Source: Eledone cirrhosa
Taxonomy: Eukaryota
Direction: 5' to 3'
Assembly (NCBI GenBank): GCA_964016885.1
Contig: OZ024740.1
Span: 105,958,001-106,022,000, forward strand
DNA: 64,000 bases
Both the position numbers and the translations under genes were made by a program. Positions 9,083-30,722 of the stretch are shown here, in pieces (positions within the stretch are counted from its first letter, which is position 1; the number at the start of each line of letters is the position of its first letter). Below the pieces are notes generated by a model that was not told the DNA's origin, ran no database searches, and saw only the letters and a list, made by a program, of their open reading frames with translations.

Positions 9083-10422
9083 TATATATCAACTAGAAAT
9101 ATATATATATATATATATATATATATATATATATATATATATGTGTGTGTGTGTGTGTGTATAGATACATGTGACGCTGACTTCGGTGGCTTTAGCACGT
9201 TGGTACAAAGTTTGTGCTAAGACTCATATCTGACGATTTCCACCTATCCTGCTCTGGTGACGTTGACTTCGGCGGATTTAGCTGAGCACATGTTGCTACA
9301 AAGTTTGCGCCATGCCTCATGCTTGACAATTTTTACCCATCCTGCCCTGGTGACACTGAAAACGCTGACGAGCACTGTCTTTTCTCTTTTTCATTATGTC
9401 ATTAACATGACATGAGACCTTAATTCATTATCGAGTCGTTGGATATCGTAGTAATGTACAGCATATCTTTGGCTTTCAACTAGATGTAGCCAATTACTCA
9501 GGAGAGAAAGAGAAAACGAGAGAAATATAGAGAGTGAAAGAAGAGATAGATGATGAACTGCCCGTCTACGGGACTGCAACTTTAGTTATCAATCTCGGAA
9601 GGATGAAACACAAAGTTGACCAGGACATAGGGAACAGGAACGAATGCCGCAAAACAATCTATCTGACGTTCTAACGATTCTGCAAATTCACCAGCTGATT
9701 ATAATACATAAAAGAGATTGATTGAACAGTAATTGTTTGAAACTAATTACTTAATGCTCTCTATACGCATGCATATTGATATATTTATATTTAGATACAT
9801 CTTTACATAGGCGAACGTTCGCACTTAGATATAAACCTGCATACATATACATATACACGTGCATATGAGGTCATCGCTTGAGTTTCAGTTTGGTTTCACT
9901 TTATGTAGGTGTATGTGTATATATGAAATCACATTTCTGATAGGCCATTGACAAGTGTCCATACTGTATGTAGCACGGGGGAATTCTCTATATCGTATTA
10001 ATGTCCTTACTGGATGTCGAATGTTTATGACAAATAAATTGCTGTGCGGCCATTAATATTTTAACAGCGCAGTCTGTCGGTGAAAAGACATATTGATAAC
10101 AGAGTTTCAGATTACATTTATTACATCTATTACACCTGTTTCATTTTTCTGCATTACAATCCCTACCTCCTGGGATAATTTTGGTTCTCATCACTTTAAA
10201 GTCGATCCGACAGTATTATGCGGAGGATTATACACACACACACACATATATATATATATATATATAAGAACATTTCGCTCTACATGGCTGAATACAATAA
10301 ATGTAATCTGAGTTTTTCGAATATTAATAACATTCGATTCGTTTGAAATTTTGCAAACAAGCCTCAATTTTATAGCCATGTCAGTAGAATTAACATTTCA
10401 TTCTTGCTCTTGTGTTGGCATG

Positions 10423-10486
10423 TGAACAGAACTACAGACACTAATGTTTCTGGATATCATCCTTCATCAGTACAGCTCACTGTTCA
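10423..10486 (-). ncRNA. Type I hammerhead ribozyme (left arm)
   Basis: Minus strand: gagctgta CTGATGA aggatgatatcca GAAA CA ttag TG TC tgtagttc. Confidence 0.75.
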
Positions 10487-10714
10487 CCTGCCAACTGTCA
10501 GAGCTTGTGAAAATATATGCTATTTTCAAAATTACACAGAGACTGATCGGCCTGATTTGCATATTAGCAAACTGGCTGATCAGTCAGATCTGCATATTAG
10601 CAGATCCACTGATCAGCCAGATTTGCATATCAGCAGACTGGCCAGTCAGTTTCCTGTATACGATTGATAAATGCCGGCTTTGCCAAATTCAAATAAAAAA
10701 GACAGTTGCGCAGG

Positions 10715-10779
10715 TGAACAGTGAGCTGTACTGATGAATGGTGATACCCAGAAACATTAGTGTCTGCAGTTCTGTTCAG
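10715..10779 (+). ncRNA. Type I hammerhead ribozyme (right arm)
   Basis: gagctgta CTGATGA a-tgg-tgatac-cca GAAA CA ttag TG TC|tgcagttc. Stem I is 8 bp and extends via tgaacag/ctgttca. GUC triplet at 10762-10764. Confidence 0.8.
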
Positions 10780-11398
10780 ATGCCAACACAAGAGGAAGAA
10801 TGAAGTGTTCATTCTACTGACATGGCTATCAAATTGAGGCTTGTTTGCAAAGTTGCAAACGAATCGAATGTTATTAATATTCGAAAAACTCAGATTACAT
10901 TTATATATATATACATATATAAATATATAAATATATATATATATATATATATATATATATATATATATATATATATATATATATATATATATATATGTAT
11001 ATATACATATGTTTGTGTGTGTCTATTTGTGTGTGAGTGTTAGTGTGTGTGTGTGTGTGTGTGTGTGTGTGTGTGTGTGTGTGTGTGTGTGTGTGTGTGT
11101 GTGTGTGTGTGTGTGTGTGTGTGTGTGTGTGGAAGTATTCGGTGAAAGATAGGGCTGTTTTGATGGTGCTCCAATTGATTCATCGGCTGGTGGTTCCGTT
11201 GATCTCCATGTGATATAACAGAAACAACAGTATTGCAGCTTCATCTAGTAAGGCATTTATATTAGCTAAATTAGATGTTATCGACTGATGGCTTCTTTTA
11301 ACATAGTCAGTGGTTCGGTAAACAATAGAAACGAGGTTCAGTCCCCACACTTTTTTCTCTCATATTTCTCGTTATATATATATATATATATATATATA

Positions 11399-28189: not shown

Positions 28190-28550
28190 TCATCAGTATC
28201 TTCCTCGTCATTGTCATCGTCATCACCATCATCATCGTGATCGTCGCCATCATCATCATCAACATCGTCATAGTCATCGTTATTACCATCATCATCGTCA
28301 CCAACATCATCATCGTCATAGTCGCCATCATCATAATCATGATTATCACCACTACTGTTGCCAGCACTATCACTATAATCATCAACATCATCGCCATCAT
28401 CATCATCATCATGATTATCACCACCACTATCACTAGCACACCTTCATCGCCACCACCACCACCACCAACATCACTATAATCATCATTATCATAGTCGTCG
28501 CCGCTGTCATCTTCAACCTCACCATTATCACGATCGGCGTAATCCTCATC
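28190..28550. repeat. Degenerate (CAT/CAC)n low-complexity tract
   Basis: Trinucleotide runs that produce spurious poly-I and poly-M ORFs. Confidence 0.85.
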
Positions 28551-28964
28551 ATCGGCTTTGTCACTTAACAGCCTGAATAAAAGTCAATTTATCCAGTCAC
28601 CTTCACAAATATCTGTTGCTCTCTTTCTATCTTGCTCACCACTGCGCCTCTCTCTCTCTCCCCCCTCTCTCTCTCTCTCTCTCTATATATATATATATAT
28701 ATATATATATATATATATATATATATCTTTCTCCCCCCCCCCCTCTCTCTCTCTCTCTCTCTCTCTTTTCAAAGGGGATGGGAAACCCCAGGTTACAGAA
28801 GGTACTCCTTACGTTAATAGAAGAATCATGCCTATTTTATAGAGAAATGACATTTAACAGGACTTGAACGGTTTCATTCGCATGAAATCAGATGATTTCA
28901 TACGAAGGAAGGAGTTCTAGTAACACATGCAAGTCATGTGTAAAGGATTTAATGTCATAGGTAG

Positions 28965-29170
28965 AGGATTGGCGGAATCGGTAGAACATCGAACAAAATG
29001 ATTTGCGGTATTTAATTACGACTCTCAACGTTCTGAGTTCAAATCCCACCAAGTTGAACTTTTTTCTTTTCATCCTTCCGGCGTTGATGAAAAAGTACCA
29101 GTATAGCACTGAAAGCAATATAACGGACATTCGCCTTCCCACTGGCCTTGTTCATCAATTAAAAATCATT
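28965..29170 (+). mobile_element. Diverged tRNA-derived SINE
   Basis: ggattggcggaatcggtagaac...tctgagttcaaatccc...ctttcatcc...aaaaagtaccag. Confidence 0.7.
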
Positions 29171-30073
29171 ATTTAGCAAAGTGTGAAGGATAATTGAGTG
29201 AAATGTTTACTGGCGATAAAGTAAAGTACAAGATGCCAAACTATATCGAATTTACATCTAAGTATTTGAACAAAAGCTAAATATGTATATGAATTAAATT
29301 CTCTTATGCAACTAATTAAGAAGTGAACGTAAAACATACATTTTAAACTATGAAAAGGAGGCCCAAAAGCTATACCCAAAAGCAATACTGAAAGTCTGTG
29401 ACTGACTTTACATAGTATTCCTTATATGTACATTAAACCTGCAAGTAAATTTCAATTGCAATAAACGATTTTTTATATATATTGCTCTGTAGGTTTTATT
29501 TATTACCTTTCTGTTATATGAAGGGCAGTCATTAAGAGCTAAAACCTGGGTTATGAACAGATAATTATAGAGATTCACATTAATGAGGATCAACACGCAC
29601 ACACCCACACACCCTCCCCCCACACACACGCACGCACGCACACGCACGCACACGCACACACACACACACACACACACACACACACACACACACACACACA
29701 TATATATATGTATATATATATGTATATATATATGTATATATATATGTATATATATATATAAATATATATATAAGGTAAGAAACTCTTAGGAGAGCTGGAC
29801 AGCAGAGGGTCTTCAGAGAAAAAAACCCTGCATGTGTTTCGGCCCTTATCTTCTTACACTGAAGTGATATAGGGGTCCTGACTCTTTTCCTATTGCCCAC
29901 TCTACTACCCGGGGTTCTGACTCTTGACTCTTTTCCTATATATATATATATATATATATATATATATATATATATATATATATTTAAGAGTTAAACAAGA
30001 TTCAATGAGTACATCAAAGAATGAGTTTTACAATAGATAGGAAGCACTCTACAGCTAAATGTTTTCCAGAGTT

Positions 30074-30722
30074 ATTAATATTAATTCAAAATATTAAGAA
30101 AACAGATATTCTTGTGATCAATTAAATTGTATTATACATATTTCAGAGGTACTGAATTAAGTTCAACAGAACGTCCTCATCAGATAAAATAAAATGATAC
30201 ATGACATACCCTGACATGGTAGATAGTTAAGATTTAATCAAGGTAGTGATTAATTTATGAGAAAACTAAATATTTATACCTTAATATTGAGAACATGAGA
30301 GAACGTAATACAATCAATAGAGAGAGTGTGAGTAATATATTTTAAGAAATACATGGCATCAATGTAACAATTATAGCAAAACTACTAAAAAACTACTCCC
30401 GCATATTTCTATAGTAGTTTTTGCTATAACTGTTACATTGATGCCATGTATTTCTTAAAATATATTACTCACACTCTCTCTATTGATTCTATTACGTTCT
30501 CTCATGTTCTCAATATTAGGGTATAAATATTTAGTTTTCTCATAAATTAATCACTACCTTGATTAAATCTTAACTATCTACCATGTCAGGGTATGTCATG
30601 TATCATTTTATTTTATCTGATGAGGACGTTCTGTTGAACTTAATTCAGTACCTCTGAAATATGTATAATAAAATTTAATTGATCACAAGAATATCTGTTT
30701 TGTTAATATTGGGAATTAATAT
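30074..30722. mobile_element. PLE-like inverted-repeat element, ~312-bp arms (30074-30387 / 30412-30722), 24-nt spacer
   Basis: Near-perfect palindrome. The left arm has an extra ~90-bp outer extension (29985-30073) homologous to 47655-47740. Confidence 0.9.
30611..30673 (+). ncRNA. Minimal hammerhead (antisense twin at ~30127-30189)
   Basis: ttttat CTGATGA ggacgttctg...cagtacctct GAA ATATGTAT A|ataaaa. Confidence 0.7.

What the first reader, a model, noticed from the sequence alone, without database searches (positions are those of the whole stretch)
10297..30722. Six palindromic elements share one geometry: ribozymes face outward, often with a one-sided outer tail
Seen: at 10.3, 11.4, 18.1, 21.5, 24.3 and 30.1 kb the left arm carries the HHR or HHR-like motif on the minus strand and the right arm carries it on plus (only the GAAA half at 24.3 kb). 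In four cases (10.3, 18.1, 21.5, 30.1 kb) the left arm has an extra 30-90 nt outer extension that the right arm lacks. Known: Penelope insertions often have an inverted 5' pLTR lacking the short 3' tail. Inference: these are not MITEs but PLE-type insertions shrunk to two inverted pLTRs. Transcription from either side would meet a sense ribozyme and form a long dsRNA hairpin, a likely ADAR or Dicer substrate.
Basis: partly seen in the sequence, partly recalled or inferred. Interest (0 to 1): 0.75.

Follow-up and report, generated by a model that had tools for sequence, protein, structure and literature searches.

The report
Twin-primed Penelope stubs with long tails
These six mirror-image repeats are short, back-to-back ends of Penelope-type jumping genes inserted in TA repeats, each with a tail on one side only, likely built when both cut DNA strands copied the element's RNA; the layout is already known, but several tails here are two to four times the published length.

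Summary
The six palindromes are real and are Penelope-like (PLE) insertions, not MITEs. Each belongs to an abundant family, abuts (TA)n, has variable inner ends and a family-borne tail on one arm. Intact or collinear RT-endonuclease ORFs were found for 11.4 kb (Neptune-type), 18.1 and 30.1 kb (Hydra-type); 10.3 kb is a ~435-nt tandem retrozyme-like unit. Corrections: 11.4 kb has no hammerhead; all six have a tail, four left and two right; tails run 30-139 nt (published 30-40). In 800 kb sampled blind, 15 of 15 hammerhead-bearing inverted repeats face outward. 48 of 54 typed insertions have exactly one tailed end, and either arm can be the longer, which argues for two coupled primings rather than fold-back or later shrinkage. 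Arm ends pile up near the ribozyme cut site in two families (suggestive only). No RNA data were available, so ADAR/Dicer use is untested; folding predicts the hairpin masks the ribozyme. The architecture is in print (PMC8557442, PMC3846280, PMC11167929), and this scan has reported it often, in this genome and others.

The parts
10267..10296 (-). E1 tail, 30 nt here (28-40 nt in the family, variable A-run)
   Evidence: family copies match through it; inverted arms start at query position 24-36
10267..10703 (-). E1 tailed arm = one whole ~435-nt monomer of a non-coding tandem HHR unit (retrozyme-like)
   Evidence: head-to-tail repeats at ~432-440 nt spacing in L004, L021, L026, L028
10704..10904 (+). 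E1 tail-less inverted arm, ends in (TA)n
10429..10478 (-). E1 left type I HHR; predicted cut between 10437 and 10436
10723..10772 (+). E1 right type I HHR
11400..12330 (-). E2 tail-less arm plus interior: 3' UTR of a Neptune-type PLE, no HHR
   Evidence: collinear with the 3' UTR of the intact ORF in L166
12320..12770 (+). E2 tailed arm
12771..12803 (+).
   Evidence: present at 17 of 25 focal family ends, absent at 8
17980..18067 (-). E3 tail, 88 nt
   Evidence: inverted arms start at query position 88 throughout
17980..18523 (-). E3 tailed arm: 3' end of a young Hydra-type PLE, HHR core at 18168
   Evidence: 98% match to both pLTRs of the full element in L081
18555..18782 (+). E3 tail-less inverted arm, HHR core at 18682
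21457..21526 (-). E4 tail, about 70 nt
   Evidence: inverted arms start at query position 69-79
21527..21590 (-). E4 left arm with Hydra-style HHR (core 21583)
   Evidence: motif layout like the Hydra HHR table of PMC8557442 supplement
21589..21648 (+). E4 tail-less arm, HHR core mutated
24257..24470 (-). E5 tail-less longer piece with HHR core at 24348 (stem I decayed)
24475..24551 (+). E5 right arm, GAAA half of the HHR only
24552..24671 (+). SINE fragment inserted between the E5 arm and its tail
24672..24810 (+).
   Evidence: same sequence follows the arm directly in L116, L117, L128, L132
29984..30076 (-). E6 tail, about 93 nt
   Evidence: inverted arms start at query position 93-95
29984..30400 (-). 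E6 tailed arm: 3' end of a second Hydra-type PLE, HHR core at 30183
   Evidence: collinear ORF upstream in L171, L173, L176, L179, L182
30401..30722 (+). E6 tail-less inverted arm, HHR core at 30617

Best explanation
The six palindromes are doubly 5'-truncated insertions of Penelope-like retroelements in (TA)n, likely made on landing when the element's endonuclease nicks both strands and two reverse transcriptases prime at two fixed internal RNA sites, one at the tail end and one 30-139 nt further in. SHOWN: family identity, (TA)n flanks, two fixed outer ends, variable inner ends, one tail per insertion, ORF links for E2, E3, E6. INFERRED: both cDNAs run toward the RNA's 5' end, stop early, and are joined head to head, often through a short microhomology. 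Both outer ends are therefore element 3' ends, which makes any HHR near the 3' end face outward and leaves the stretch between the two start sites as an unpaired tail. INFERRED: the two primings are coupled (one RNP, perhaps a dimer), and E1, E4 and E5 are non-coding passengers of PLE enzymes. SUGGESTIVE: some templates begin at the HHR cut. The copies in this window are probably inert; if read through, they would fold into long hairpins that mask the ribozyme.
For: Intact 741-aa ORF between two direct pLTRs 98% identical to E3 (L081), with RWR, DKT, CxCX5C, CxxC and CxH motifs and no CCHH, the Hydra diagnostics of PMC8557442 section 11; it aligns with the E2 ORF (E 1e-10) and its Atlas neighbours are PLE-like RT/GIY-YIG clusters at 0.95-0.98. 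E2 ORF has RVT_1 and GIY-YIG above Pfam cut-offs. E6 has collinear Hydra-type ORFs in 5 of 12 extended loci. Blind 800 kb: 50 strict HHRs against 0-1 in five shuffles; 18 inverted-repeat rows = 15 distinct elements outward, 0 inward. Tail-neutral queries: 48 of 54 typed pairs have one tailed and one tail-less end (p 3e-9 against 50%). Tailed arms as short as 28-89 nt face tail-less arms of 200-660 nt (L306, L292, L318, L323, L190), which fold-back cannot give. Arms of one insertion share minority alleles more often than arms of different insertions (E1 16 of 24 vs 33%; E6 6 of 6 vs 40%; E3 1 of 19 vs 0%). In vitro precedent: a PLE protein nicks and extends both strands, starts at two internal sites that define the tail, and is predicted to be a dimer (PMC11167929).
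Against: No ORF link was found for E1, E4 (0 of 20 loci collinear) or E5, so their driver is inferred. 6 of 54 pairs break the one-tail rule as scored (2 tail/tail, 4 none/none; two of the latter hold a damaged or SINE-split tail on reading), plus one tail/tail pair 6.6 kb apart (L082). Eight further pairs could not be typed. Only top-scoring copies were seen. TSDs and empty sites cannot be read in (TA)n and no relative genome is held. Shared alleles could also come from gene conversion between arms. Pfam and PDB sequence searches did not recognise the Hydra-type ORF.
Confidence: 0.75

Rival explanations
1. Self-priming or fold-back: one cDNA (or an antisense RNA) folds on a palindrome and copies itself, giving the inverted arm (model proposed in PMC3846280).
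For: 27 of 59 junction rows show 1-22 nt of overlap and some are centred on short palindromes, e.g. L350; extra small inversions occur in junctions. PMC3846280 argues this from palindromic junctions (passages).
Against: Fold-back predicts one arm nested in the other. The tail-less arm often extends far past the tailed arm while only the tailed arm holds the tail, so neither can be a copy of the other. It does not explain two fixed outer ends.
Confidence: 0.1
2. Two independent insertions into the same (TA)n, or full-length elements that later lost their middle.
For: (TA)n is a shared target and neighbouring independent copies do occur, including inward-facing ones (L071, L079, window 19030/21463). 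Full-length inverted copies exist (L179, L082).
Against: No (TA)n lies between the arms of counted pairs; independent events would give 50% mixed pairs, not 48 of 54, and inward pairs as often as outward; arms share minority alleles; young (99% identical) E3 copies are already short.
Confidence: 0.1
3. MITE or foldback DNA transposons with fixed TIRs.
For: Long inverted arms and TA flanks. One inner junction recurs at two unrelated loci (L291, L293).
Against: Ends are asymmetric, inner ends and arm lengths vary, many copies have one arm only, and three families run into PLE ORFs. A true TIR element in the window (15634-16885) has symmetric ends and a transposase-like ORF.
Confidence: 0.02
4. 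Sub-question: arm ends pile up near the HHR because its stems and palindromic loop supply microhomology or stall RT, not because the ribozyme cut the template.
For: A second pile lies at the 5' edge of the HHR (E1 positions 205-212, 4 of 7 at risk; most E4 arms end at 113-141, past the cut at ~90). E6 and tail-less E3 arms pile up 55-90 nt upstream of the core instead. The drop just past the E1 cut was not significant in the new set (10 of 19 vs 2 of 9, p 0.22). PMC11167929 found no RNA reads ending at the cut.
Against: Predicted in advance (note): 10 of 19 E1 arms at risk end in the 22 nt up to the cut (position 171) against 12 of 81 in the three earlier windows (p 0.001), three within 1 nt of it. 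Tailed E3 arms: 5 of 27 up to the cut against 1 of 43 in the next two windows (p 0.03).
Confidence: 0.45

Closest known systems
EN+ PLE insertion architecture (Craig et al. 2021, PMC8557442, passages and section 11; Arkhipova et al. 2013, PMC3846280, passages)
   Same: 5' truncation, inverted truncated copy, tail at one end only, HHR in the pLTR, (TA)n targets.
   Different: Published tails are 30-40 bp; here 30, 33, ~70, 88, ~93 and 139 nt. The papers say 'often' or 'optionally' one-sided; here 48 of 54, and the tail is not tied to the longer copy.
Hydra clade PLEs, including Hydra-1_Obim (PMC8557442 section 11 and supplement part 2)
   Same: E3 and E6: short single ORF, DKT, CxCX5C linker, no CCHH, canonical HHR, (TA)n insertion.
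   Different: The HHRs here differ in sequence from the one listed for Hydra-1_oBim; these look like further families. No tree was built.
Neptune clade PLEs
   Same: E2: RT plus C-terminal GIY-YIG, CX4CxxC linker, GLKF and DKG motifs, 33-nt tail.
   Different: No canonical HHR found in the full element, although PMC8557442 calls HHRs universal in canonical clades; 1.1-kb 3' UTR with internal microsatellites.
Metazoan non-LTR retrozymes (PMC7229834, passages; bioRxiv 10.64898/2026.07.22.740005, parts 1-3 of 5)
   Same: E1: non-coding ~435-nt tandem unit with one type I HHR per unit.
   Different: Its insertions carry the PLE footprint (two fixed ends, inverted arm, TA target), which the parts read propose as a link but do not describe. 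Circular RNA not tested.
PAc in vitro system (Frangieh et al. 2024, PMC11167929, parts 1-2 of 4)
   Same: Two internal RT start sites define the tail; both strands nicked and extended; AT-rich targets.
   Different: That work does not show that one insertion uses one site on each strand.
L1 twin priming (recalled, no call)
   Same: Two primers on opposite strands, head-to-head cDNAs, microhomology junction.
   Different: In L1 the two cDNAs copy non-overlapping parts; here they overlap and so make an inverted repeat.

Membership tests
EN+ Penelope-like elements | Single ORF with PLE RT and GIY-YIG endonuclease collinear with the repeat | tested here: met
   E2 (L166), E3 (L081), E6 (L171, L176). 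Not found for E1, E4, E5.
EN+ Penelope-like elements | pLTRs in direct or inverted orientation with 5' truncation | tested here: met
   Direct pLTRs in L081; inverted truncated arms in all six families.
EN+ Penelope-like elements | Tail at one end | tested here: met
   All six; 48 of 54 typed pairs. Four of six tails exceed the published 30-40 bp.
EN+ Penelope-like elements | Type I HHR in the pLTR | tested here: inconclusive
   Motif present in E1, E3, E4, E5, E6; absent from E2 and its full element. Cleavage not assayed.
EN+ Penelope-like elements | Target-site duplication | not testable with these tools
   Flanks are (TA)n; no empty sites held.
Hydra clade (E3, E6) | RWK-type motif, DKT, CxCX5C linker, no CCHH, CxxC and CxH motifs, (TA)n target | tested here: met
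   Read from the translations against section 11 of PMC8557442; RWR in E3.
Hydra clade (E3, E6) | Placement in the Hydra clade by RT phylogeny | not tested
Neptune clade (E2) | CX2-5CxxC linker, CCHH-type endonuclease, DKG | tested here: met
   Read from the L166 translation; two Cys and two His around the YIG core. Clade name rests on these motifs, partly recalled; no tree.
Non-LTR retrozymes (E1) | Non-coding tandem unit of a few hundred nt with a type I HHR per unit | tested here: met
Non-LTR retrozymes (E1) | Self-cleavage and circular RNA | not testable with these tools
   No RNA run was listed.
MITE / TIR DNA transposon | Symmetric fixed TIR ends on both sides and uniform unit | tested here: not met
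   One-sided tails, variable arms, single-arm copies.

The most novel reading that the evidence does not exclude
Every EN+ PLE insertion is built by one complex that primes the two nicked strands at two different RNA sites in a fixed one-of-each rule, with the spacing free to evolve from 30 to about 140 nt; it also carries non-coding retrozymes whose HHR-cut RNAs serve as templates in vivo; and the result, roughly tens of thousands of self-contained hairpins, is a main source of the exceptional dsRNA and A-to-I hyper-editing load reported for octopus.
Probability: 0.3. Interest if true: 0.7.

Novelty: new member of a known kind. Interest (0 to 1): 0.36.

Why it matters
How PLEs make inverted pLTRs and tails is an open question (PMC8557442, PMC11167929). 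Counts from this genome narrow it: one tail per insertion and non-nested arms point to coupled double priming, and the intact young ORFs (L081, L166) offer material for an in vitro test with unusually far-spaced start sites. A rough extrapolation from 15 HHR-bearing palindromes in 800 kb gives some 50,000 in this 3-Gb genome, plus HHR-less ones, which could feed ADAR; a lizard Penelope is already known as heavily edited and octopus as dsRNA-rich (PMC5625713, passages). The six copies themselves are ordinary transposon debris.

Tried and rejected
Rfam scan: no hammerhead family at E<=1, only microsatellite noise and one tRNA-like hit. RNA evidence: no RNA holder listed; laying three contig sets of one sample showed very deep family cover and many short-palindrome joints but no piece spanning this locus, so expression, editing and empty sites are untested. 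A-to-G scars of edited templates: none; rare sense-strand A>G 195 against T>C 292, shared between arms 1 against 2. ORF link for E4: 0 of 20 loci collinear; none seen for E1 or E5 in their 3-kb loci. Pfam and PDB sequence searches missed the Hydra-type ORF. Isolated HHRs did not fold into the three-way junction as minimum-energy monomers, as expected for minimal motifs with a palindromic stem III that are thought to act as dimers; this neither supports nor refutes activity. Assembly artefact rejected: arms differ by 1-6% and stop at family-fixed positions. 'Tails all on the left' rejected (4 left, 2 right). One search failed to remove duplicates and was redone; part was cut from view. Four 'inward' rows among 206 in the targeted loci are one midpoint artefact (L014) and three pairs of separate neighbouring insertions. 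Not in print, as far as searched: searches found no paper giving PLE tails over 40 bp, a one-tail count or twin priming for PLEs; subscription papers are not in the library, the supplement of PMC8557442 was seen only in part (search hits and part 2 of 59), that of PMC11167929 not at all, and the preprint's supplements are closed.
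Full report
Setting. The window is G000:C1:105958001-106022000 of a 3.0-Gb animal genome, AT-rich and full of microsatellites. Its look and SINE suggest an octopus-like cephalopod (my inference, recalled).

Observation. All six inverted repeats exist. A type I hammerhead descriptor finds outward-facing motifs on both arms at 10.3, 18.1 and 30.1 kb (8 hits in the window, 0-2 per shuffle). 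At 21.5 kb the left motif has an intact core and the right a mutated one; at 24.3 kb the left arm has the full core with a decayed stem I and the right only the GAAA half. At 11.4 kb there is no HHR, exact or relaxed. So the HHR claim holds for 5 of 6.

Tails. Searches of the own genome show each element in a large family (first-look candidates 2640, 1325, 2257, 3038, 816, 3939 for E1-E6). The left extensions are family sequence, and inverted partners begin exactly where the extension stops: position 24-36 in E1, 88 in E3, 69-79 in E4, 93-95 in E6. E2 and E5 also have tails, on the right: 33 nt at 12771-12803 and 139 nt at 24672-24810, the latter separated from its arm by a SINE. Tail lengths are 30, 33, 88, ~70, 139 and ~93 nt; the papers read give 30-40 bp (PMC8557442; PMC11167929; 31 bp in PMC3846280).

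Identity. E3 is the 3' end of a young element with an intact 741-aa ORF between two direct pLTRs (L081). It carries the Hydra-clade motifs listed in PMC8557442 section 11, aligns with the E2 ORF and has PLE-like Atlas neighbours, although Pfam and PDB searches missed it. E6 runs into a related ORF in 5 of 12 extended loci. A Hydra family is already listed for Octopus bimaculoides. E2 is the 3' UTR of a Neptune-type element with an intact ORF of about 1,110 aa holding RVT_1 and GIY-YIG. E1 is a non-coding ~435-nt tandem unit with one HHR, a non-LTR retrozyme by layout. E4 and E5 have Hydra-style HHRs and no ORF link in the loci seen.

In 800 kb taken blind (200 kb beside the window, 600 kb from six other chromosomes) there are 50 strict HHRs against 0-1 in five shuffles. 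Of 161 inverted-repeat rows, 18 (15 distinct elements) hold an outward HHR, none an inward one, and 143 hold none. In targeted loci 40 rows are outward and 4 inward; the four are one splitting artefact and three pairs of separate insertions. Orientation is not random. It follows from both outer ends being element 3' ends.

Mechanism. With queries that left the tail out, 48 of 54 typed pairs have one tailed and one tail-less end, 2 have two tails and 4 none (p 3e-9). Dropped before the count: the window's own copies, 2 pairs with (TA)n between the arms, and 8 untypable pairs; three E2 loci had been refetched longer by choice; only top-scoring copies are seen. Either arm can be longer, and tailed arms of 28-89 nt face tail-less arms of up to 660 nt, so neither arm is a copy of the other. 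27 of 59 junction rows overlap by 1-22 nt, 5 are blunt, 26 have extra letters (partly because a reference ended) and one was an artefact; BLAST overcalls such overlaps. Arms of one insertion share minority alleles more than arms of different insertions. With the in vitro result that a PLE protein nicks and extends both strands and starts at two internal sites bounding the tail, the best reading is coupled double priming followed by early termination and head-to-head joining. The enzymatic steps are inferred, not shown.

Where arms stop. Tailed E3 arms end in excess just short of the predicted cut (5 of 27 against 1 of 43 in the next two 22-nt windows). For E1, 11 of 29 ended there against 1 of 18 just past it. 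I then predicted the same for an unconstrained E1 set: 10 of 19 at risk ended in the 22 nt up to the cut against 12 of 81 earlier (p 0.001), but the drop past the cut was not significant (2 of 9, p 0.22) and a second pile lies at the HHR's 5' edge. E4 arms stop at that 5' edge; E6 arms and tail-less E3 arms stop 55-90 nt upstream of the core, perhaps a transcription start. In vivo cleavage is therefore suggestive only; stem microhomology or stalling is an equal rival.

RNA consequences. Folding the whole palindromes gives 219-461 long-range pairs for E1, E2, E3 and E6, with 58-62 of 62 HHR-region nucleotides paired to the other arm in E1, E3 and E6. A read-through transcript would likely be a hairpin with a silenced ribozyme. 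ADAR use has precedent (lizard Penelope heavily edited, octopus rich in dsRNA; PMC5625713) but is untested here. No A-to-G scars were found in the copies.

Verdict. Real, PLE-derived, architecture known. This scan has reported it before: 458 notes in at least 44 genomes hold the same key words, and several in this genome describe the same footprint, one for three unrelated elements at once; these notes are unchecked and are not used as support. What this finding adds is modest: long tails, a count for the one-tail rule, an HHR-less Neptune-type member, and a SINE hot spot at the E5 tail boundary. Interest 0.36.

Noticed in passing
window 24552-24671 and E5 loci L116-L139: The common SINE sits within 25 nt of the E5 arm/tail boundary in 14 of 24 E5 loci, with variable 5' truncation, against 0 of 28, 1 of 27, 0 of 29 and 0 of 24 for E3, E6, E1, E2: a sequence-specific SINE hot spot at what would be an RT start site.
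   Followed up: partly
L166:2800-7800 (E2 full element): No canonical HHR in this Neptune-type family; the single relaxed hit lies in a neighbouring E3-like insertion.
   Followed up: partly
L082 (G000:C2:346711300-346721200): Two nearly full E3 ORFs head to head over 6.6 kb, both ends tailed.
   Followed up: no
L291 and L293: Identical inner junction at two unrelated loci on different chromosomes: recurrent microhomology or re-mobilisation of a palindrome.
   Followed up: partly
L240:4539-6317; L212:6050-7468: A 310-nt HHR tandem array in two outward-facing arms, and a ~470-nt HHR tandem array.
   Followed up: no
window 15634-16885: Tc1/mariner-like element (name recalled from the translation) with ~105-nt symmetric TIRs and a broken transposase ORF; an E4 copy abuts its right end.
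   Followed up: no
window 4753-5220, 16881-16990, 19030-19149, 24125-24216, 27807(-), 28836-28890, 5254-5412/19613-19771/21282-21433: Further single-arm PLE ends: an older E2 copy, three E4 copies, an E3-like tail, another intact HHR, and a family with a decayed HHR.
   Followed up: no
window 41789-42097 and 13020-13176: A seventh palindrome without a strict HHR and a related single arm.
   Followed up: no
window 49123-64000: Cluster of non-LTR retrotransposon ORFs, including a 2.3-kb direct duplication and two minus-strand copies of another type.
   Followed up: no
blind sample L203-L282: Many HHR-less inverted repeats with (TA)n on one side and a short recurring sequence on the other, probably further PLE families.
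   Followed up: no
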